Assembly (NCBI GenBank): GCA_963746775.1
Contig: CAVVCK010000001.1
Location: forward strand, 483,151-547,150
Source of the DNA: an uncultured bacterium
GTDB taxonomy: Bacteria > Patescibacteriota > JABMPQ01 > CAVVCK01
DNA: 64,000 bases
Direction of reading: 5' to 3'
Position numbers and translations under genes: made by a program. Below the pieces are notes generated by a model. The model had not been told where the DNA came from, ran no database searches, and saw only the letters and a list, made by a program, of their open reading frames with translations. Numbering within the stretch: position 1 is the stretch's first letter; each line of letters opens with the position of its first letter. Shown one piece after another: positions 2,562-61,230 of the stretch.

Positions 2562-3125
2562 TTATGGATTTAATTTAAAAGTATCAATTATTCTCTCTAT
2601 ATCTGTATTCAATTCTTTAATTTCACAATCTGGCATACCCACACAATCATTACTACTAGAATAATAGAGTAAATATTTGTTATTTCTTGTAATATATTTT
2701 TGTGGATAATCTATAATAGAAGGATCATTTTCGTCTTCTGTTTTGACAATCTGTATTTGAATATATTGATTTAATCCTTTTGAACTTAAAAGTATTGATT
2801 TATAAATTTTAGATCCCTCGAAAATTTTAACATTTTCTTCATTTAATTTGCCCCATTCTTTCGGATACCTCAAACTAAACCCATACTCTTCATTTTCATA
2901 GGTGAACCAATTAGAAGTATCAATTTCATTTGAATTCTCATTATTATCTTCTGTATTTTTAACATTGTCTTCTTCCTGATTCTCCTCATTCGAAATTTCC
3001 GCCGCCGGAGCTTTGGCTTCTTTGTAGGCTACAAAATAATATAAAATAAGCAGTAAAAAAATCGCTAAAACAATAAAAACAATAAAATAAATTTTTTTGC
3101 TCTTTTTCTTTTTTTCTTCTGCCAT
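2562..3125 (-). CDS. N-terminally membrane-anchored acidic low-complexity protein, hypothetical
   Basis: 187-aa ORF. Lys-rich start followed by a TM helix (IYFIVFIVLAIFLLLILYYFVAY), then an E/N/D-rich region. Lies 26 bp upstream of the CHAP gene on the same strand, so likely the same operon. Confidence 0.5.
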   Translation of the reverse strand: MAEEKKKKSKKIYFIVFIVLAIFLLLILYYFVAYKEAKAPAAEISNEENQEEDNVKNTEDNNENSNEIDTSNWFTYENEEYGFSLRYPKEWGKLNEENVKIFEGSKIYKSILLSSKGLNQYIQIQIVKTEDENDPSIIDYPQKYITRNNKYLLYYSSSNDCVGMPDCEIKELNTDIERIIDTFKLNP

Positions 3126-3376
3126 TTTTTTATAAATTAAACTAAAAAATTCCCATCAAAAAGTTTGGGAAATTATAAATTAATAATATCATTATTAAAT
3201 AAATTTTTGTTGCCTCCATCAACATTTTTTATTTTGAATAATAAATTTTTTGTTCTCTATTTTAAGTTAGCACTAAAACAAATCCAGGTCAAAATAATTT
3301 TTGTGGATAAAAATTTTGAACAAGATTTATTTCCCTCCGAGAAGAATGCCCGGAGGGTTTCAAAGATCAAAACCTG

Positions 3377-13886: not shown

Positions 13887-14574
13887 TTACTTGTCAACAT
13901 TAATTTTACTTTTTTTCTGCCTAAATTCAGATATTTTTTTATGATTTCCTGATAATAATACCTTTGGTACCTTTAGTTCCTTGATTCTTGATTCTATATT
14001 CTTAATTCTAAACACTTCTGGTCTCGTATATTGAGGATACTCCACATAACCTTTTTTATTATGTGTTTCTTCAAATAAAGATTCTTCCTTGTTTAAAACA
14101 CCTGGAATTAATCTTGTCACCGCATCAATAATAGTCATAGCCGGTAATTCCCCACCAGTTAAAACATAATCTCCAACAGATACTTTTTCATCAATAAACT
14201 TTTCCACTCTTTTATCAAAACCTTCATAACGTCCACATAAAAAAACTATATTATCCAACTTAGAATATTTACGAGCCATATTTTGATCAAATTTTTTACC
14301 AGCCGGATCCATCATTATTATTTTTTGTCCCTTTATTTTTTTAATTTTTTTTAAAGCTTTGTAAATAGGTTCAATTTTTAAAATCATCCCCGGACCTCCC
14401 CCATAGGGACGATCATCTACAGACCTATGTTTATCTGTAGTATAATCTCTTAAATTATGTAAATTGATTTTAGCTAATTTCTTTTTTTTGGCACATCCAA
14501 TCATACCTGTATTAAAATAGGCTTCAAATATTTCTGGAAAAATTGTAATTATATCGAATATCATGTTTTTAGAA
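13887..14574 (-). CDS. trmD: tRNA (guanine37-N1)-methyltransferase TrmD
   Basis: MIFDIITIFPEIF ... RPYGGGPGMIL ... GRYEGFDKRV ... TGGELPAMTIIDAVTRLIPG. Start placed at the internal ATG; the track's N-terminal extension crosses a repeat. Confidence 0.75.
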
Positions 14575-14700
14575 ATTAGCTGTTTGGAAATTAGAAAATG
14601 GTAATAGAAATTTGAAACTAGAAAATAGAAAACAAATTTCCAATTTCTATTTTCTATTACTAATATCCATTTTCTATAATACCAATTTCTTTTAAAATTC
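14575..14700. repeat. TAGAAAAT-word imperfect palindromic intergenic repeat, copy 1
   Basis: Left arm GGAAATTAG ... TAGAAAATAGAAAA. Right arm ATTTCCAATTTCTATTTTCTATTA ... CCAATTTC. The same word family recurs at 20845..20972 and 61110..61230. Confidence 0.55.
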
Positions 14701-20793: not shown

Positions 20794-20844
20794 ATTTTTG
20801 TTATTTATAATTTATTAAATTAATTACTGTTGCTAAAATTATAT

Positions 20845-20972
20845 TAGAAAATAGTTATATAGAACTTGGAAATTAGTAATGAAAACTAGAAAATAGAAAA
20901 TAGATTAAATACTAATTTCCAACATCCAATTTCTATTACCAATTTCTATTTTCCAAACAACTAATTTCTATA
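20845..20972. repeat. TAGAAAAT-word imperfect palindromic intergenic repeat, copy 2
   Basis: GGAAATTAGTAATGAAAACTAGAAAATAGAAAATAG ... CCAATTTCTATTACCAATTTCTATTTTCC. Lies between rpsP and smc. Confidence 0.55.
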
Positions 20973-38886: not shown

Positions 38887-39217
38887 TGGTTTTATACCCC
38901 ATTGCCATCTTTTTCTAGAAGGTCAGGATTTTCTACTGCAAATCCTCTGGTTGGCAAGTAGAATCAGAAAATTTTCAAGATGCTAATGGTGCTTACTAAG
39001 ATGCAGATAAGATTTATACTATTAAATTTCAAAATAAAGATAATAGTGAAACCAATATTGAATTTAGAAACCCTATTTTAGAGACAGGCTATGAAGCTTG
39101 TAAAGTAGCTTTCGAAGAAATGGAACTAGATTTTAATGAAACCAACCCTAATAAAATGAGCCCAGCCTTAATTATCTGTTATAGACAGGACTTTCTTGTT
39201 ATAATAAATATATGAAA
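38887..39217 (+). pseudogene. decayed reading frame with two in-frame stops (TAG, TAA), translationally coupled to the downstream gene
   Basis: One frame reads MMVLYPIAIFF-TAG-KVRIFYCKSSGWQVESENFQDANGAY-TAA-DADKIYTIKFQNKDNSETNIEFRNPILETGYEACKVAFEEMELDFNETNPNKMSPALIICYRQDFLVIINI-TGA. The terminal ATATGA overlaps the ATG of 39212. Confidence 0.35.
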
Positions 39218-40141
39218 ATAATAAAAAAATTAACTATTATATTATTAGCTATTGATTTTTTTATAATTACTTTAACTGGTCTTATTAAAGCGCTAGAGCT
39301 TTATAATATTTCAGATACTGGATTTAGGCTTCTGCCAAGATATACAGTTAATTTGTTTCATGATATCAGTGGGATCGTATTTATATTATTAATATTGATT
39401 CATCTAATTATTAAAAGGCAATATTTTATTGCTCCTCAGATTTTAAATAAGAAATTTTTAAAAATAAGAATTTGGGTTTATTATTTAATTTTGTTTTTAA
39501 TTTTAGCTGGATCAATAACTGTTCTATATACTAGTCAGCTTAATTTAGCTAGTAATACGGTGAAGCAATTAGCTAGGAGTGAAGTAAAAGAATATCAAGG
39601 AGAAAAGCTTGATTCTATAATTGATTTAGAAAATACTGGTATCAAAGGAACACAGAACATTAATATTGAAGATTATTCTTTGAATATAGAGGGTTTAGTT
39701 AATAATCCCAGATCTTATACTTATGATGAAGTATTGCAGTTACAGAAATATTCCAAAGTAGTAGAATTAAATTGTGTAGTTGGCTGGAGAGCTAAAATAT
39801 TATGGGAAGGTATTAAACTAATTGATTTATTAGATGGGTCTAATATAAAAGATAATGCCAAAGAAGTAATATTTTATGCGGAGGACGGTTACTCTACTTC
39901 CCTATCCCTAAATTATATAAGAGACAATAATATTTTATTAGCATATAAAATAAATGGTGTTGTTTTGCCACCAGAGAAAGGATTTCCTTTTCAACTAGTG
40001 GCAGAGCAGAAATGGGGTTATAAATGGATAAAATGGATTACTAAAATAGAGTTATCGGATAATACAGATTATAAAGGAACTTATGAAAGCAGTGGCTATA
40101 GTAAAGATGGAGATTTGGATAAGCCGAAGAGAGGAAAATAA
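39212..40141 (+). CDS. membrane-anchored protein with sulfite-oxidase-family molybdopterin-binding (Oxidored_molyb-like) domain
   Basis: N-terminal 2-3 TM helices. C-terminal NCVVGWRAKILWEGIKLIDLL ... VIFYAEDGYSTSLSLNYIRDNNILLAYKINGVVLPPEKGFPFQLVAEQKWGYKWIKWITKIEL matches the MsrP/YedY-type fold pattern. Confidence 0.45.
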   Translation: MKIIKKLTIILLAIDFFIITLTGLIKALELYNISDTGFRLLPRYTVNLFHDISGIVFILLILIHLIIKRQYFIAPQILNKKFLKIRIWVYYLILFLILAGSITVLYTSQLNLASNTVKQLARSEVKEYQGEKLDSIIDLENTGIKGTQNINIEDYSLNIEGLVNNPRSYTYDEVLQLQKYSKVVELNCVVGWRAKILWEGIKLIDLLDGSNIKDNAKEVIFYAEDGYSTSLSLNYIRDNNILLAYKINGVVLPPEKGFPFQLVAEQKWGYKWIKWITKIELSDNTDYKGTYESSGYSKDGDLDKPKRGK

Positions 40142-40196: not shown

Positions 40197-40349
40197 ATGG
40201 ATAAAGAAGATAGAATATTTAATGAGGAAATAGATTTATCGGAAGAAAATCGTCCGCCTTTTCAGTTTGATGAAAAATTAGAAAAAGCTCTTGATAAGGT
40301 AAAGAAAATAATTGAATCAGAGGAGGAAGATGCTAAAAGAAATTGCTAG
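40197..40349 (+). CDS. small acidic ORF (50 aa) overlapping the PIN gene start; candidate antitoxin
   Basis: MDKEDRIFNEEIDLSEENRPPFQFDEKLEKALDKVKKIIESEEEDAKRNC. Stop TAG at 40347 overlaps the downstream ATG at 40330 by 20 nt. No SD upstream and no DNA-binding motif recognised. Confidence 0.2.
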   Translation: MDKEDRIFNEEIDLSEENRPPFQFDEKLEKALDKVKKIIESEEEDAKRNC

Positions 40350-40872
40350 AAAATATCTGTTATTAGATACTAATATTTTAGTTGATTCTGCAAAATATAA
40401 AGATAATTTTAAGCCTTTTTATGCTGAATTAAAAAAGCTTAATGTTGCTCCCGTGATAGACAGCTCAATTAAGTTAGAATTTTTAAGGAGTGCAAATAAT
40501 ATAAAAAATTTACAAGAAAAAATCTGGTGTTTAAATGTTTTATTGGGTAGTCAAAAAGACAGACTAGAACTTCCAATTACTGACGAAACGCTTATAGATG
40601 CTAGAAAGCTATCTAATTTATATCATCACTTAAAAATTAAGAAGAAGAAATCAATATCAGTAGTAGATTGTTTATTAGCTGCTCATTTAAAAAAATATAT
40701 TAATAATCTTTATCTAGCTACATCTAATAATAGTGATTTTACTACTAAAATATTTGATAGAATTCATATATTTAATATAGGAATAAACGATGAAATTAGG
40801 AATATTGGTATCTATAAATACTCGGAAAAGAAATACCTAGAAGTTTTAGAAAAATTCAAAAGAAGTAAATAA
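40330..40872 (+). CDS. PIN-domain nuclease (VapC-like toxin), long form
   Basis: ATG preceded by AGGAGGAAG. N-terminal LLDTNILVD. Mid DCLLAAHL (the D-x-LIAA motif). C-terminal LATSNNSDF (the T-x-N-x-DF motif). The track start at 40312 is TTG. Confidence 0.45.
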   Translation: MLKEIARKYLLLDTNILVDSAKYKDNFKPFYAELKKLNVAPVIDSSIKLEFLRSANNIKNLQEKIWCLNVLLGSQKDRLELPITDETLIDARKLSNLYHHLKIKKKKSISVVDCLLAAHLKKYINNLYLATSNNSDFTTKIFDRIHIFNIGINDEIRNIGIYKYSEKKYLEVLEKFKRSK

Positions 40873-42112: not shown

Positions 42113-42230
42113 AATTTTTTATTAATTTATATTATAGTATCATACGAATTACTGTTTATTATAAATTTCTTCGGATCTAATGTCAAAAAACTTATTAACA
42201 GGTATTATTAAGAAGTATAAAATATAAAAA

Positions 42231-42277
42231 TACGCCCCTGTAGAGGCAGGTTTTAAACCCGTCTCTACAGGGGCGTA
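42231..42277. terminator. long near-perfect palindrome (TACGCCCCTGTAGAGGCAGG-TTTTAAA-CCCGTCTCTACAGGGGCGTA), bidirectional terminator-like
   Basis: 20-bp arms with an A-run upstream and a T-run downstream. Separates the Cys-rich peptide gene from the aminotransferase gene. Confidence 0.5.
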
Positions 42278-42300
42278 TTTATTAAAATTGCTTGTTTAGC

Positions 42301-42408
42301 TTATTCTTCATCATCTCCACCACAACATCCTCCACAATCATCACAGCCACCATTAAAGTCACAACAACCGCCGCCGAAACAGCAGCCTCCACCTATTAAT
42401 TTTTTCAT
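42301..42408 (-). CDS. 35-aa Cys/Gly-rich peptide (MKKLIGGGCCFGGGCCDFNGGCDDCGGCCGGDDEE), metallothionein-like or RiPP-precursor-like
   Basis: Strong SD GGGAGGTGA 8 nt upstream of ATG. 11 Cys in 35 residues, including four CC pairs. Acidic tail. Own terminator downstream. Confidence 0.5.
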   Translation of the reverse strand: MKKLIGGGCCFGGGCCDFNGGCDDCGGCCGGDDEE

Positions 42409-42419
42409 ATTTATCACCT

Positions 42420-42556
42420 CCCTCGTGTTAATTTATTAATATAAAATAAAATGCGTCCTCTCCCTTTATAAAAGGGAGAGCTAGAGAGGGATTTTTACTA
42501 CATAATTTTGTGGTATAAATCTCCCTCTAACCCCCTCTTTTGTTTAAGAGGGAGGA
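42420..42556 (-). promoter_or_regulatory. structured leader: three consecutive stem-loops built from GGGAG/CTCCC units between the permease and the Cys-rich peptide gene
   Basis: In minus-strand sense the stem-loops are CCTCCCTCTT-AAACAA-AAGAGGGGG, TAGAGGGAGATTT-(24 nt)-AAATCCCTCTCTA and CTCTCCCTT-TTATAA-AGGGAGAG, followed by a U-rich stretch and then the SD. Confidence 0.4.
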
Positions 42557-43510
42557 CTAAAGGACTTTTTCCAGAAAATTAAATAAATAGCCTATCAATA
42601 TTATACCAAATCCGACAATTGTAAAGAATATGGCTAATAATCTGCCTCTCATAATTCTTTTCAATATTATACCCTCGGGTAGGGAAAGTCCAGCGATAGA
42701 CATCATAAAAGCCAGGGAAGTACCCAGTGGTACACCGTTAGCTGTAATACTGAAAATTAAAGGAACAACGGTAGAGCAGCCGGCGTAAATTGGAATACCG
42801 ATTATAACGGCTACTGGAACAGCTAGAAAATTATATTTTCCAATAATATTCATAAAAAAATCTTGAGGAACATAGCCGTGAATAATAGCTCCAATAGCTA
42901 CACCTCCTAGGACGTATAGAAATAGTTTTTTGAAAGTTTTTTTCCCTTCTTTCAGAGAATATTTAATTTTTTTAGAAAATTCTTGAGGAAGAGTTTTGAA
43001 TTTTTTATCTTTATTATTATCATTTAAGATTATCTGATCATCCATTCTAAGAGATCCTAAGATCATGCCAGCTACTACTCCCAGAATAATTCCAGTTAGG
43101 GCGTAAATAATAGCCAATGTCCAACCAAATAATTCCCCCATCAAAACAAAGGCTATTTCGTTAACTAGAGGTGAGGTAATGAGAAAAGAAAAGGCAATTC
43201 CCATAGGAACTTTTGCCTTTATAAAACCAATAAATAAAGGGATAGAAGAGCAGGAACAAAAAGGAGTAACTGAGCCAAAAAGAGAGGCAATAATATTTCC
43301 TATACCAAATTTTGATTTAGAAGCAGCTTTTTGCACTTTAGAAATTGGAAAATATGTACGTACGAAAGCAATAATTGAGACAACTATAAAAATTAAGAAT
43401 AATATTTTTAGAGAATCATAAATAAAGAAATTGAGAGCAATATCGAGCTTTGATTGTTCGGATAAATTTAGAATATTGTGAGTAATGAGATTAGCGATAT
43501 ATTGAAACAT
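42557..43510 (-). CDS. DUF318/ArsP-type permease with vicinal-Cys TPFCSCSS motif
   Basis: 317 aa, about 8 TM helices. Motif VTPFCSCSSIPLFIGF is characteristic of the YraQ/ArsP predicted-permease family. Confidence 0.6.
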   Translation of the reverse strand: MFQYIANLITHNILNLSEQSKLDIALNFFIYDSLKILFLIFIVVSIIAFVRTYFPISKVQKAASKSKFGIGNIIASLFGSVTPFCSCSSIPLFIGFIKAKVPMGIAFSFLITSPLVNEIAFVLMGELFGWTLAIIYALTGIILGVVAGMILGSLRMDDQIILNDNNKDKKFKTLPQEFSKKIKYSLKEGKKTFKKLFLYVLGGVAIGAIIHGYVPQDFFMNIIGKYNFLAVPVAVIIGIPIYAGCSTVVPLIFSITANGVPLGTSLAFMMSIAGLSLPEGIILKRIMRGRLLAIFFTIVGFGIILIGYLFNFLEKVL

Positions 43511-43644
43511 GGGAGTAGAATTTATAAATTATAATGTAAAATGTAAAATTAATTATAAAACATTATTATTTTAATGTAAAAAATGTTTTGATTATTCTAT
43601 TTTCTTTGCTAATATCTACTTATAAATTTCGAATTCAAAAATCC

Positions 43645-44103
43645 GAATGACGAATAAATGACAAAAATAAAAAATGCCTAAGATAAAATATGATCTTGAA
43701 GAAAGGACGGCTATATTTGGTGAAAATATAATAAAATTTACAAGAAAAATACCAAAAGACCCAGTAAATATTTCTTTAATAAGTCAATGCACTAGATCTG
43801 GTACAAGTGTTGGAGCTAATTATCGTGAAGCAGATGATGCACAATCTGGTAGAGATTTTTTACATAAAATTAGTATATGTAAAAAAGAATCTAGAGAGAC
43901 AAAACATTGGCTTAGGATGATTGTAGAATCGTCACCAATCTTAAAAGAAGAAGCAAGAATATTATATAAAGAAGCTCAAGAGTTAAATCTAATCTTTGCA
44001 GCAATTATTAGAAATAAAAAAGAAAATGATTTAGTGAAAAAGCGTAAAAAGATTAGTCATTGAATCATTAAATAATTTATTCTTCATTCTGGTTTATTAA
44101 TTA
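43645..44103 (+). mobile_element. four-helix-bundle (IVS-protein) gene cassette bounded by conserved end motifs (CGAATAAATGACAAA ... TTCATTCTGGTTT)
   Basis: The same end motifs bound an ORF-less 77-bp copy at 57246..57322. GAATGAC ... GTCATTC inverted at the extremities. Confidence 0.5.
43674..44063 (+). CDS. four-helix-bundle protein (23S rRNA intervening-sequence protein family, TIGR02436-like)
   Basis: SQCTRSGTSVGANYREADDAQSGRDFLHKISICKKESRETKHWLRMI matches the family core (RSGTSVGANY.EA ... F.HKL.IA.KE.RET.YWL). Confidence 0.7.
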   Translation: MPKIKYDLEERTAIFGENIIKFTRKIPKDPVNISLISQCTRSGTSVGANYREADDAQSGRDFLHKISICKKESRETKHWLRMIVESSPILKEEARILYKEAQELNLIFAAIIRNKKENDLVKKRKKISH

Positions 44104-46870: not shown

Positions 46871-46886
46871 ATATTTGTAATTTCTT

Positions 46887-46916
46887 GTAGGGGTTCAAAA
46901 TTTTAAACTCCTACAG
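46887..46916. repeat. repeated palindromic hairpin TGTAGGGGTTCAAAATTTTAAACTCCTACA, copy 1
   Basis: Near-identical to the perfect palindrome at 48955..48984. Overlaps the stop of the RluA-family gene. Confidence 0.5.
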
Positions 46917-47558
46917 GCTTAATTTATTTAGATAATTCTTCAAGTCCTGTGGTAAGTCTATTTCAAATTCTTTAATTTCTTTTCCTAAACTTAATTTTAA
47001 ATAATAAGAATGCAGAAAATGTCTATTAATAGGAAAAGGCTCTTTTAAATTTCTAAAAGTATATTCATGGTCACCAACAAGAGGATGACCGATCATTTTC
47101 ATATGTTGTCTGATTTGGTGCATACGGCCAGTCTTTATTTCTATATTAAGCAGGGTAAAATCTTTAATATATTTTAAAACTTTATAGTAAGTAATCGCCT
47201 CTTGTTTATTAACTCTACCCTTTTTAGCAATAGCATAAGTGATAACACCCGATTCGTTTTTAACTTTACCATAAACTAAGGCTTGATATCTTTTTTCAAC
47301 TTTTTTATCTTTGAACTGATTTAATAAATATTCGTATGTCTTCTGATTTTTAGCACAAATAACTAAGCCAGAGGTATCTTTATCTAAGCGATGAACTATT
47401 CCTGGTCTAAATTTTTCGCCCACGTTTTTAATAGCTGGATAATAATCTAACAGAAAATCAACCAGTGTTCCAGCTTTTGTATATTTATCTGGATGAACTA
47501 GGATACCAGGTTTTTTATTTATAACGATAACATTAGTATCTTCGAATATAATGTCCAT
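46911..47558 (-). CDS. RluA-family pseudouridine synthase
   Basis: Catalytic HRLDKDTSGLVICAKN motif. 215 aa. Confidence 0.7.
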   Translation of the reverse strand: MDIIFEDTNVIVINKKPGILVHPDKYTKAGTLVDFLLDYYPAIKNVGEKFRPGIVHRLDKDTSGLVICAKNQKTYEYLLNQFKDKKVEKRYQALVYGKVKNESGVITYAIAKKGRVNKQEAITYYKVLKYIKDFTLLNIEIKTGRMHQIRQHMKMIGHPLVGDHEYTFRNLKEPFPINRHFLHSYYLKLSLGKEIKEFEIDLPQDLKNYLNKLSL

Positions 47559-48939: not shown

Positions 48940-48954
48940 AAAATTAATACTTAT

Positions 48955-48984
48955 TGTAGGGGTTCAAAATTTTGAACCCCTACA
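48955..48984. repeat. repeated palindromic hairpin TGTAGGGGTTCAAAATTTTGAACCCCTACA, copy 2 (perfect)
   Basis: Perfect 30-bp palindrome between ribE and ribH. Copy 1 is at 46887. Confidence 0.55.
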
Positions 48985-49005
48985 ATATAAAATAATTTAA
49001 AAAAT

Positions 49006-60766: not shown

Positions 60767-61102
60767 ATGTCAAATAATAGAATTAGTAAATTAAATAGTC
60801 TTGTTAAAGATGAACTTTCTAAAATAATTCAAAGAAAGGTTGATTTTGAAGAGGGTGTTTTGGTTACAATTTACAAAGTAGAGGTTTCGATTGATATTGC
60901 TCATGCCAATATACATATCAGTGTAATTCCTGAGGAAAAAGAAAAAAAAGCCTTTGAAGTACTTCAAGAAAATATTTTTCAAATACAACAGGAATTAAAT
61001 AAAAAACTAGTCTTAAAGATAATTCCTAAAATAAGATTTGTGTTGGATGATTCTATAAAAAGAGCAGCTGCTATGGAGGAATTGTTTAAACAAGTATCTT
61101 AA
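60767..61102 (+). CDS. rbfA: ribosome-binding factor A
   Basis: 111 aa. Motif VTIYKVEVSIDIAHANIHISV typical of RbfA. Immediately downstream of infB. Confidence 0.75.
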   Translation: MSNNRISKLNSLVKDELSKIIQRKVDFEEGVLVTIYKVEVSIDIAHANIHISVIPEEKEKKAFEVLQENIFQIQQELNKKLVLKIIPKIRFVLDDSIKRAAAMEELFKQVS

Positions 61103-61109
61103 TGTTGGA

Positions 61110-61230
61110 AATTAGTTATACAGAAAGTAGAAATTAGTAATAGAAAATAGAAATTGGAAATTTGCTTTCTATTTTCTAATTTCAAGTTTCTATTACCATT
61201 TTCCAATTTCCAAATAGCCAATTTCGTATG
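61110..61230. repeat. TAGAAAAT-word imperfect palindromic intergenic repeat, copy 3
   Basis: GGAAATTAGTTATACAGAAAGTAGAAATTAGTAATAGAAAATAGAAATTGGAAATTTGCTTTCTATTTTCTAATTTCAAGTTTCTATTACCATTTTCCAATTTCC. Confidence 0.55.

What the first reader, a model, noticed from the sequence alone, without database searches (positions are those of the whole stretch)
42301..43510. Two-gene module: CxC-motif ArsP/DUF318 permease followed by a strongly SD-led 35-aa Cys/Gly-rich peptide
The peptide MKKLIGGGCCFGGGCCDFNGGCDDCGGCCGGDDEE has 11 Cys, including four CC pairs, plus an acidic tail. It has a strong SD (GGGAGGTGA) and its own terminator.

Directly upstream on the same strand is a polytopic permease carrying the TPFCSCSS vicinal-cysteine motif. 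That family includes organoarsenical and other thiophilic-substrate exporters. A triple-hairpin leader separates the two genes.

The peptide could be a metallothionein-like ligand or chaperone for a soft metal(loid) handled by the permease. Alternatively it could be a Cys-rich RiPP-type precursor exported by it. Neither pairing is, to my knowledge, a described system.
Basis: partly seen in the sequence, partly recalled or inferred. Interest (0 to 1): 0.75.

Follow-up and report, generated by a model that had tools for sequence, protein, structure and literature searches.

The report
Cysteine-rich mini-peptide partnered with ArsP-type permease
A tiny (35-residue) cysteine/glycine-rich peptide gene sits behind an arsenic/metal-type export pump in a candidate-phyla-radiation bacterium; it is a real, conserved gene and looks like the smallest known version of the thiol-rich helper proteins that commonly accompany this pump family.

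Summary
The two-gene module is real. It lies on the minus strand: an ArsP_1 (PF03773) permease at 43510-42557, then a 35-aa peptide at 42408-42301 with a 9-nt Shine-Dalgarno match and its own terminator.

The "triple hairpin" is a window-specific insertion, absent from relatives.

The peptide recurs behind 93%-identical permeases on two other metagenomic contigs. There it is 31 and 34 aa long, differs only by in-frame indels, and shows synonymous changes only in its conserved ends, so it is under purifying selection.

It is absent from permeases at or below 74% identity. Other Patescibacteria lineages instead carry ArsR - FmdB zinc-ribbon - permease operons. The zinc-ribbon tail (GGCC-x5-C-x3-C...CCG) has the same Cys spacing as the 31/34-aa peptides.

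In cultured bacteria the homologous permeases sit beside small thioredoxin-like (MTH895/ArsE) or GDCCVxC proteins, often in ars operons.

Best reading: a free-standing vicinal-dithiol accessory (metal(loid) chaperone or buffer) for a thiophilic-substrate efflux permease. A RiPP reading is not supported.

Verdict: new variant of a known kind, moderately interesting.

The parts
43552..43580 (-). Promoter-like site (TTTACA-17-TATAAT, 11/12) about 40 nt upstream of the permease start. Candidate operon promoter.
   Evidence: Consensus scan only. Not evidence of function.
42557..43510 (-). ArsP_1-family permease gene (317 aa, roughly 8 hydrophobic segments).
   Evidence: Pfam PF03773 E = 6e-61. NCBIfam SaoE and SO_0444 matches fall below their cut-offs. 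8000 homologues were found, the best ones from Patescibacteria.
43244..43267 (-). Codons for TPFCSCSS (residues 82-89), holding the vicinal CxC pair C85/C87.
   Evidence: Read from the sequence. C85 and C87 are invariant in 120/120 best homologues.
42770..42787 (-). Codons for YAGCST (residues 242-247), holding the third invariant Cys, C245, in the second half of the permease.
   Evidence: C245 is invariant in 120/120 homologues, and 113/120 homologues have exactly three Cys.
42455..42557 (-). 103-nt three-way-junction RNA structure (three hairpins closed by a stem). It starts at the permease stop codon and is specific to this window.
   Evidence: Fold -47.3 kcal/mol; region z-score -6.9. Most of it is absent from L029 and L072. 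It is not repeated in the window and matches no Rfam family.
42414..42422 (-). Shine-Dalgarno sequence GGGAGGTGA, 5 nt before the ATG.
   Evidence: Complementary to the 16S 3' end ATCACCTCC in this window. Conserved in L029 and L072.
42301..42408 (-). 35-aa Cys/Gly-rich acidic peptide gene (MKKLIGGGCCFGGGCCDFNGGCDDCGGCCGGDDEE, stop included).
   Evidence: Variants of 31 and 34 aa lie behind 93%-identical permeases. Substitutions in the conserved ends are all synonymous.
42228..42280 (-). Intrinsic terminator (long G+C-rich hairpin followed by a U run) that ends the two-gene unit.
   Evidence: Terminator-like hairpins also follow the peptide in L029 and L072.
42158..42186 (-). Perfect sigma-70-type consensus (TTGACA-17-TATAAT) for the downstream aminotransferase gene. 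It marks the boundary of the module.
   Evidence: 12/12 match. The aminotransferase is identified.

Best explanation
The module is a two-gene operon. An ArsP-family secondary efflux permease has three invariant, membrane-embedded cysteines (C85-x-C87 and C245), likely the thiophilic substrate site. It is followed by a real, translated, cytosolic peptide of 31-35 residues built from vicinal Cys pairs, glycines and an acidic tail.

The most likely function of the peptide is a free-standing thiol accessory of the permease. It would capture a trivalent (organo)arsenical, or another soft metal(loid), on its CC pairs in the cytosol. It would then pass the substrate by thiol ligand exchange to the permease's Cys triad for proton-motive-force-driven export. 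The same chemistry could also buffer the toxicant or keep the permease thiols reduced. The acidic tail may dock on the Lys-rich central loop of the permease.

Shown here:
- the gene order and the translation and termination signals;
- the family assignment of the permease;
- invariance of the three Cys;
- conservation of the peptide under purifying selection;
- recurrence of the same Cys motif, tethered to FmdB zinc ribbons, in ArsR-permease operons;
- ars-operon context in relatives.

Inferred: metal(loid) binding, hand-off to the permease, docking, and the identity of the substrate.
For: (1) Real gene.
- Three contigs carry permease-peptide with conserved SD, start and stop and only in-frame indels (35, 31 and 34 aa).
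- Window vs L029: permease dS 0.64 and dN 0.04. The 20 terminal peptide codons show 4 synonymous and 0 nonsynonymous changes.
- L029 vs L072: 5 synonymous and 0 nonsynonymous changes in 29 codons.
- DNA similarity collapses right after the stop codon.

(2) Linked to the permease.
- The spacer shrinks to 47 nt without any hairpin in L072, and a terminator follows the peptide in all three contigs.
- Genes downstream of the peptide differ between contigs.

(3) Thiophilic permease.
- It carries the ArsP_1 domain.
- C85, C87 and C245 are invariant in 120/120 homologues, and 113/120 homologues have only these three Cys.
- Family members export MAs(III)/Rox(III) (PMC6205960) or confer Zn/Cu resistance (10.1101/072470; 10.1101/2022.07.06.499078).

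(4) The same motif in a partner protein elsewhere.
- ArsR - FmdB zinc ribbon (TIGR02605) with tail GGCC-x5-C-x3-C...CCG - permease occurs in L024, L026, L027, L046, L047, L050 and L065-L071. Shorter Cys/Gly tails occur in L031 and L048.
- In 890,604 scanned codon positions, the pattern [GS]GCC-x5-C-x3-C occurs only in these tails and in the L029/L072 peptides.

(5) Arsenic context.
- L024 has ACR3 (396 bits) and an ArsC-like gene just upstream.
- Sulfuricella pSCD has ArsC - ACR3 - GDCCVxC protein - permease - a protein ending GSCC...NSCC - ArsM.
- 7 of 8 annotated plasmid homologues have a small thioredoxin-family protein in the operon. The two tested belong to the MTH895/ArsE family.
Against: - There is no expression, binding or transport evidence of any kind.
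- The peptide is confined to one narrow lineage. It is absent next to permeases at or below 74% identity, including the sister clade L001/L003. The permease therefore does not need it.
- The window holds no ArsR, ArsC, ACR3 or ArsM, so the substrate is not pinned down here.
- The window's own peptide departs from the CC-x5-C-x3-C spacing.
- Homology between low-complexity Cys/Gly sequences cannot be proven. phmmer found no relatives at all, and Pfam and NCBIfam give no hit.
- The permease scores below the curated cut-offs of the only characterised NCBIfam subfamilies.
Confidence: 0.5

Rival explanations
1. Redox partner. The peptide stands in for the small thioredoxin-like (MTH895/ArsE) protein that usually accompanies ArsP_1 permeases. 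As a sacrificial or recyclable dithiol, it would keep the permease's three cysteines reduced, or reduce the substrate, rather than carry metal(loid) itself.
For: 7 of 8 annotated homologous permeases have a thioredoxin-family neighbour. The two tested match TIGR00412 above its cut-off. ArsR - Trx - permease in Chlorohelix has the same gene order as ArsR - FmdB-tail - permease.
Against: The peptide has no thioredoxin fold or CxxC motif, so nothing tunes a redox potential. Vicinal CC pairs form strained disulfides and are typical of metal(loid) ligands (ArsD, MerA and MerT, from my own knowledge). No reductase gene is nearby.
Confidence: 0.2
2. Co-substrate. The peptide acts as a gene-encoded phytochelatin- or glutathione-like ligand, and the peptide-metal(loid) complex itself is what leaves the cell or is sequestered.
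For: The composition (Cys pairs, Gly, acidic tail) resembles phytochelatin or metallothionein ligands. The strong SD and flanking stable RNA structures suggest the peptide is made in excess of the permease. The tight operon link is shown.
Against: ArsP-family proteins are small 4+4-TMS carriers of the TOG superfamily (PMC7176098) with small-molecule substrates, so a 3.4-kDa peptide complex is an unlikely cargo. In other lineages the same motif is tethered to a cytosolic zinc-ribbon domain, which argues for a ligand that stays in the cell.
Confidence: 0.1
3. RiPP precursor. The Cys/Gly-rich peptide is a thiazole/TOMM- or heterocycloanthracin-like precursor that is modified and then exported by the permease.
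For: The Cys/Gly core superficially resembles microcin B17 or heterocycloanthracin cores. From memory, the TIGR02605 description itself notes that FmdB tails resemble such precursors.
Against: Only 5 residues (MKKLI) precede the core, so there is no leader. No YcaO, cyclodehydratase, radical-SAM or Lan enzyme occurs among the ORFs of 180 aa or more in the 64-kb window, and no CX3CX2C ORF is present. The neighbours are housekeeping genes. The partner is a metal(loid)-type permease, not an ABC or peptidase exporter. In relatives the motif is fused to a zinc ribbon in ArsR operons.
Confidence: 0.05
4. Not a functional partner. The ORF is a lineage-specific young or accidental gene, or a cis-regulatory leader for downstream genes, that merely happens to lie behind the permease.
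For: It is restricted to one narrow lineage and absent from the sister clade. No database relatives were found. The middle of the peptide is variable in sequence and length.
Against: Substitutions in the conserved ends are all synonymous at dS of about 0.4-0.6. The SD is perfect. A terminator plus a perfect promoter separate it from the aminotransferase. The downstream genes differ between contigs while the permease-peptide link is kept. The motif recurs next to homologous permeases.
Confidence: 0.08

Closest known systems
ArsP methylarsenite/roxarsone(III) efflux permease (Campylobacter jejuni; TC 2.A.119; Pfam ArsP_1)
   Same: Same Pfam family and similar size. Same TPFCSC-type vicinal Cys pair in a hydrophobic segment. 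Relatives sit in ars operons and under ArsR.
   Different: No accessory peptide is described for C. jejuni ArsP. The window has no ars genes. Orthology to C. jejuni ArsP and the substrate were not tested.
ArsD-ArsAB arsenic metallochaperone system
   Same: A small cytosolic protein with vicinal Cys pairs is encoded next to the efflux transporter and, in the FmdB-tail operons, sits between ArsR and the pump as arsD does. The proposed thiol-to-thiol hand-off is the same.
   Different: ArsD is a roughly 120-aa thioredoxin-fold protein that serves the ArsA ATPase. Here the partner is an unstructured 31-35-aa peptide and the pump is a secondary carrier. There is no sequence similarity.
MTH895/ArsE family thioredoxin-like proteins (TIGR00412) next to ArsP_1 permeases
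   Same: A small (about 77 aa) Cys-containing protein directly adjacent to homologous permeases, often with ArsR.
   Different: It is a folded thioredoxin-like protein with one CxxC, whereas the peptide has no fold and uses CC pairs.
GDCCVxC domain (seleno)protein (NCBIfam NF041374)
   Same: A small zinc-ribbon-like protein with vicinal CC motifs immediately upstream of a homologous permease in an ars operon (Sulfuricella pSCD).
   Different: It is a different family: neither the FmdB-tail proteins nor the peptide match NF041374. No publication was found.
FmdB family zinc ribbon proteins (TIGR02605 / PF09723) with Cys/Gly tails
   Same: The tail GGCC-x5-C-x3-C...CCG has the same Cys spacing as the L029/L072 peptides and lies next to homologous permeases.
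   Different: The window peptide lacks the zinc-ribbon domain entirely. It lies downstream, not upstream, of the permease, and has no ArsR.
Metallothioneins / phytochelatins
   Same: Short, Cys-rich, unstructured soft-metal ligands.
   Different: No match to any metallothionein model. It is much shorter than bacterial SmtA/BmtA. It uses CC-Gly repeats rather than CxC/CxxC clusters around a zinc-finger fold. Unlike phytochelatin, it is ribosomally encoded.
SaoE / SaoC of the SAO locus (Haft, bioRxiv 10.1101/2022.07.06.499078)
   Same: An ArsP-family efflux protein with a CSC motif is encoded beside a protein ending in a Cys-Cys dipeptide.
   Different: SaoC is a roughly 158-aa secreted lipoprotein. 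The window permease scores 102 bits against a cut-off of 325 for SaoE. No SAO genes are present.

Membership tests
ArsP_1 / Organo-Arsenical Exporter family (PF03773, TC 2.A.119) | Full-length match to the Pfam ArsP_1 domain | tested here: met
   E = 6.1e-61, 206.6 bits against a cut-off of 32.3; residues 24-312 cover profile positions 4-294 of 294.
ArsP_1 / Organo-Arsenical Exporter family (PF03773, TC 2.A.119) | Conserved vicinal Cys pair (CxC) in a membrane segment | tested here: met
   TPFCSCSS at residues 82-89. C85 and C87 are invariant in 120/120 homologues, as is a third Cys, C245.
ArsP sensu stricto (MAs(III)/Rox(III) efflux permease of ars operons) | Location in an ars operon or under ArsR control | tested here: not met
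   No ArsR, ArsC, ACR3 or ArsM in the 64-kb window. The feature is met in relatives.
ArsP sensu stricto (MAs(III)/Rox(III) efflux permease of ars operons) | Efflux of trivalent organoarsenicals | not testable with these tools
   Needs transport or resistance assays.
SaoE (NF040736) and SO_0444 Cu/Zn efflux (NF033936) | Score above the curated equivalog cut-off | tested here: not met
   102.1 bits against 325, and 82.6 bits against 300.
Metallothionein (any Pfam/NCBIfam model) | Match to a metallothionein family profile | tested here: not met
   The peptide matches 0 families at E <= 1 in both Pfam and NCBIfam.
RiPP precursor (TOMM / heterocycloanthracin-like) | N-terminal leader peptide for maturase recognition | tested here: not met
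   Only MKKLI precedes the first Gly/Cys.
RiPP precursor (TOMM / heterocycloanthracin-like) | Maturase genes encoded nearby (YcaO/cyclodehydratase, dehydrogenase, radical SAM, Lan) | tested here: not met
   None among the ORFs of 180 aa or more in the window, and no CX3CX2C ORF. The rest of the genome was not available.
FmdB family zinc ribbon (TIGR02605) | Two CxxC motifs about 17-25 residues apart forming the zinc ribbon | tested here: not met
   Absent from the 35-aa peptide. Present in the partner proteins of other lineages, which score 32-46 bits against a cut-off of 31.3.
FmdB-tail Cys motif (defined here) | [GS]GCC-x5-C-x3-C ... [GS]CCG | tested here: inconclusive
   The L029 and L072 peptides match exactly. 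The window peptide has GGGCC...CC...C..C..CCGG with different spacing.
ArsD metallochaperone | ArsD thioredoxin-like fold and a neighbouring ArsA ATPase | tested here: not met
   The peptide matches no Pfam family, and no ArsA is in the window. Only the vicinal-Cys feature is shared.
GDCCVxC domain (NF041374) / MTH895-ArsE (TIGR00412) | Profile match | tested here: not met
   No NCBIfam hit for the peptide at E <= 1.

The most novel reading that the evidence does not exclude
ArsP-family permeases generally work with a dedicated vicinal-thiol partner. This partner is a thioredoxin-like ArsE/MTH895 protein or a GDCCVxC protein in cultured bacteria, and a zinc ribbon with a Cys/Gly tail in Patescibacteria. 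In this lineage it has been pared down to a ribosomally made, 31-35-residue 'phytochelatin-like' peptide. That would be the smallest gene-encoded metallochaperone known, and in glutathione-poor CPR cells possibly the main cytosolic ligand for arsenicals and soft metals.
Probability: 0.3. Interest if true: 0.75.

Novelty: new variant of a known kind. Interest (0 to 1): 0.55.

Why it matters
No accessory factor has been described for ArsP-type permeases, and how they acquire thiol-bound substrates is unknown. This module, together with the ArsR - zinc-ribbon(Cys tail) - permease operons found here, gives a concrete and cheaply testable hypothesis. A synthetic 31-35-mer, one permease gene and an ars-deleted E. 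coli would suffice to test it. If the hypothesis is right, it adds a minimal chaperone to metal(loid) resistance. It would also show that sub-40-aa genes, which most annotation pipelines and protein indexes drop, carry function in reduced CPR genomes. And it would assign a role to the unexplained Cys/Gly tails of FmdB-family proteins.

Tried and rejected
**Searches with the peptide itself (all negative)**
A padded query found nothing. Peptides under 40 aa appear not to be indexed.
- Exhaustive phmmer against 1.84 billion representatives gave 0 hits.
- Pfam and NCBIfam gave none.
- Two degenerate-DNA scans of viral contigs gave 0.
- Exact look-up of the window peptide did not find it in the collection. 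The GTG-start form of the L029 peptide was found, and that led to the third variant, P0140.

**Other searches that led nowhere**
- tblastn of an FmdB-tail protein against plasmids found no match.
- Neither the permease nor the FmdB-tail protein has a relative of solved structure.

**Ideas considered and rejected**
- Spacer hairpins as a riboswitch or repeat element: there is no Rfam family and no other copy in the window, and they are absent in relatives. Rejected as part of the module.
- Peptide as an attenuation leader for the downstream aminotransferase: a strong terminator and a 12/12 consensus promoter lie between them, and the downstream genes differ in L029. Rejected.
- The two class-I methyltransferases at 49.5-52.8 kb as ArsM: they give only generic matches far below cut-offs. 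Rejected.
- The zinc-ribbon gene next to the Citrobacter plasmid permease as the same kind of tail protein: it has no Cys/Gly tail. Rejected.
- Lipoprotein or secretion signal: the hydrophobic region is only 2 residues long. Rejected from the sequence.

**Not done**
- Structure prediction was not run. A Gly/Cys peptide gives no usable model, and the tools return no coordinates for measuring Cys-Cys distances in the permease.
- The Chen et al. 2015 ArsP paper (PMC4681449) is not held. Statements about its Cys pair rest on my own knowledge.
Full report
**What is in the window.** Both genes lie on the minus strand.
- The 317-aa ORF 43510..42557 is a full-length Pfam ArsP_1 permease (PF03773, E = 6e-61). 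Its matches to the NCBIfam families SaoE and SO_0444 Cu/Zn efflux are weak and below cut-off.
- Next comes a 148-nt spacer, then a Shine-Dalgarno sequence GGGAGGTGA (42422..42414). It is complementary over 9 nt to the 16S rRNA 3' end encoded in the same window (...GGATCACCTCCTTTCT).
- Five nt after the SD, the ATG opens a 35-codon ORF (42408..42301): MKKLIGGGCCFGGGCCDFNGGCDDCGGCCGGDDEE.
- A long hairpin plus U run (about 42280..42228, roughly -42 kcal/mol) follows.
- After that comes a perfect TTGACA-17-TATAAT promoter for the next gene, an aminotransferase. The module is therefore a closed two-gene unit.
- The best permease homologues come from Parcubacteria, Gracilibacteria and Peregrinibacteria, so the organism belongs to Patescibacteria (CPR).
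- The window also holds 16S rRNA, dnaA and dnaN, and housekeeping genes.

**Corrections to the observation.**
- The peptide has 8 Cys (three CC pairs and two single Cys) and 12 Gly, not 11 Cys in four CC pairs.
- It is nonetheless unique. No other stop-free 35-codon stretch in any frame of the window has more than 5 Cys.
- The 'triple-hairpin leader' is real as a fold: a 103-nt three-way junction, 42557..42455, -47 kcal/mol.
- It is not conserved. Most of it is missing from the two related contigs, whose spacers are 72 nt (one weak hairpin) and 47 nt (none).
- It matches no Rfam family and is not repeated elsewhere in the window. I treat it as a lineage-specific insertion, not part of the mechanism.

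**Is the peptide a real gene?** Yes, with good confidence.
- A JGI contig (L029) carries a 93%-identical permease followed by the same SD and MKKLIGGGCCEFRGGCGEGCDGGCCGGDDEE, 31 aa.
- An exact-sequence look-up of that peptide's cluster led to a third contig (L072). It also has a 93%-identical permease fragment, followed by MKKLIGGGCCEFRGGCGEGCDGGCCGGDDQDDEE, 34 aa.
- All length differences between the three peptides are in frame. Start, SD and stop line up, and DNA similarity collapses right after the stop codon.
- Divergence is large enough to test selection. Window vs L029, the permease has dS 0.64 and dN 0.042.
- In the 20 terminal peptide codons there are 4 synonymous and 0 nonsynonymous differences.
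- L029 vs L072, the peptide has 5 synonymous and 0 nonsynonymous differences in 29 codons, plus a 9-nt in-frame insertion.
- The middle of the peptide varies in sequence and length but keeps its Gly/Cys/acidic composition.
- A terminator-like hairpin follows the peptide in all three contigs. The genes beyond it differ. The peptide therefore travels with the permease.

**Distribution.**
- I recovered 60 loci with related permeases from genome and metagenome collections. None at or below 74% identity has the free peptide, and this includes the sister clade L001/L003.
- A different partner turned up repeatedly instead. A small FmdB-family zinc-ribbon protein (TIGR02605/PF09723) lies immediately upstream of the permease and usually after an ArsR/SmtB regulator with a CVC motif.
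- Its C-terminal tail is Cys/Gly-rich, for example ...GGCCSGGDVCDISCKPDESGKSDCEDKNSNGGCCG...GGGCCFGGNTCGAGCK...GGCCG...GGGCCCGGGCH and ...CGCKGKCE.
- Working from the zinc-ribbon side, four such proteins were looked up on seven contigs. Every one lies in the order ArsR - zinc ribbon - ArsP_1 permease.
- The pattern [GS]GCC-x5-C-x3-C occurs in 890,604 scanned codon positions only in these tails and in the L029/L072 free peptides.
- The window peptide shares the GGGCC start and the CCGG end, but its internal spacing differs.
- In a rough NJ tree, the ArsR - FmdB(GGCC...CCG) - permease loci form one clade. L031 and L048 lie in another, and the free-peptide lineage in a third. The partnership is therefore patchy, and was gained or lost several times.

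**Link to arsenic and soft metals.**
- The permease has exactly three Cys: C85 and C87 in TPFCSCSS, and C245 in YAGCST. All lie in hydrophobic segments.
- All three are invariant in the 120 best homologues, and 113 of the 120 have no other Cys. Three thiolates is the classic As(III) ligand set (own knowledge).
- In L024 the FmdB-tail - permease pair follows ACR3 (TIGR00832, 396 bits) and an ArsC-like gene.
- I read eight annotated plasmid contexts of homologous permeases (about 40% identity). Seven have a small thioredoxin-family protein in the same operon, several with ArsR or ArsC/ACR3/ArsF/ArsG. The two I tested are MTH895/ArsE-family proteins.
- The eighth is Sulfuricella denitrificans pSCD. 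Its order is ArsC - ACR3 - a 72-aa GDCCVxC-domain protein (NF041374) - permease - a 103-aa protein ending GSCCAPTAKGNSCC - ArsM.
- The literature agrees on thiophilic substrates for the family. C. jejuni ArsP exports MAs(III) and Rox(III) (PMC6205960). A Shewanella DUF318/arsP-like gene is important under zinc stress (10.1101/072470). Haft proposes that the CSC motif of SaoE/SO_0444 is a metal site, sometimes USC, with CC-ended proteins nearby (10.1101/2022.07.06.499078).

**How it most likely works.**
- The peptide has no signal peptide and no transmembrane segment, so it should be cytosolic. Its net charge is about -5.
- I propose that it captures a trivalent (organo)arsenical or other soft metal(loid) on its vicinal dithiols. 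It then passes the substrate by ligand exchange to the C85/C87/C245 site of the permease, which exports it.
- This is analogous to ArsD-ArsAB, CopZ-CopA or MerP-MerT (own knowledge).
- The same chemistry would let the peptide act as a buffer, or keep the permease thiols reduced.
- The Lys-rich central loop of the permease (13 K/R against 6 D/E) is a plausible docking surface for the acidic tail.
- Everything beyond gene structure, conservation and context is inference.

**Rivals.**
- *Redox partner.* A pure redox role, replacing the thioredoxin-like neighbour, is the strongest rival.
- *Co-substrate.* Export of the peptide-metal complex is unlikely for a small 4+4-TMS carrier (PMC7176098). It also fits poorly with the tethered zinc-ribbon versions.
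- *RiPP precursor.* The peptide has no leader and there is no maturase anywhere in the 64 kb.
- *Spurious ORF or downstream leader.* This is contradicted by the selection pattern and by the terminator-promoter boundary.

**Novelty.**
- I found no paper on an ArsP_1 permease with a free Cys peptide, with an FmdB-tail protein, or with a GDCCVxC protein.
- The broader idea is already familiar: a small Cys protein beside a thiophilic-substrate transporter. It is partly captured by database curation (ArsE/MTH895, GDCCVxC, SaoC).
- I therefore rate this a new variant of a known kind. It is real, conserved in a narrow lineage, mechanistically suggestive and easy to test, but so far supported only by comparative sequence evidence.

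Noticed in passing
window 42455-42557 (-): A 103-nt three-way-junction RNA structure (-47 kcal/mol) starts at the permease stop codon. It is absent from the two close relatives, is not repeated in the window and has no Rfam match. It may be an inserted palindromic element, or an mRNA-stability or processing element that uncouples permease and peptide levels.
   Followed up: partly
L024, L026, L027, L046, L047, L050, L065-L071 (e.g. L026 2368-3960; L067 3674-5213): A conserved three-gene operon in Patescibacteria: ArsR (CVC motif) - FmdB zinc ribbon with a GGCC...CCG tail - ArsP_1 permease. It appears undescribed, and it gives the unexplained Cys/Gly tails of FmdB-family proteins a genomic context.
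   Followed up: yes
L076 (Sulfuricella denitrificans pSCD) 2936-3247: An unannotated-function 103-aa protein between the ArsP_1 permease and ArsM ends in GSCCAPTAKGNSCC. That is two vicinal Cys pairs, like the FmdB tails. It has no NCBIfam match.
   Followed up: partly
L007 4486-4695 (-): A metallothionein-like 69-aa ORF (core MGDCKCKCNACGKEEVCEGEGCECTLECCGAKMEKVCSTEEKPEGGCCGGTCA, 13 Cys, ending GGCCGGTCA). It lies beside an MntP-like gene and converges on an ArsP_1 permease. It has no family match.
   Followed up: partly
L040 / L041 about 1084 (+), roughly 1.4 kb upstream of the permease: A small membrane protein with the Cys-rich tail ...SCCDSCGDACDTACCDTAC followed by a Lys-rich end. It may be another Cys-tail protein near an ArsP_1 permease.
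   Followed up: no
L016, L017, L018, L021, L049 (permease residues about 82-89): A subgroup of the related permeases has TPFCNCSS instead of TPFCSCSS, so the middle residue of the CxC motif is not fixed across the wider family.
   Followed up: partly
window 14566-14689, 20841-20968, 61102-61225: Three copies of an AT-rich intergenic repeat of about 120 nt, made of GAAAAT/TAGAAA-type units followed by their complement-like half (families D2/D3).
   Followed up: no
window 43674-44063 (+): A stand-alone '23S rRNA intervening sequence protein' / four-helix-bundle gene (TIGR02436). It lies divergently next to the permease and is not inside a 23S rRNA gene.
   Followed up: no
window 39212-40141 (+): A fusion of a DUF4405 membrane domain with a molybdopterin oxidoreductase domain (MsrP/sulfite-oxidase-like). 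This is unusual for a reduced CPR genome.
   Followed up: no
window 40197-40872 (+): A 50-aa ORF overlapping a 186-aa ORF. On the matching Logan contig the latter carries only a faint PIN-domain hit and it gave no Pfam or NCBIfam match here. It looks like a toxin-antitoxin pair.
   Followed up: no
window 46882-46936, 48951-49005, 42228-42280: Several terminators in this genome share a related core (CCCCTGTAGAG / TTGTAGGGGTTCAAAATTTTGAACCCCTACAA). This suggests a recurring terminator or palindromic element family.
   Followed up: no
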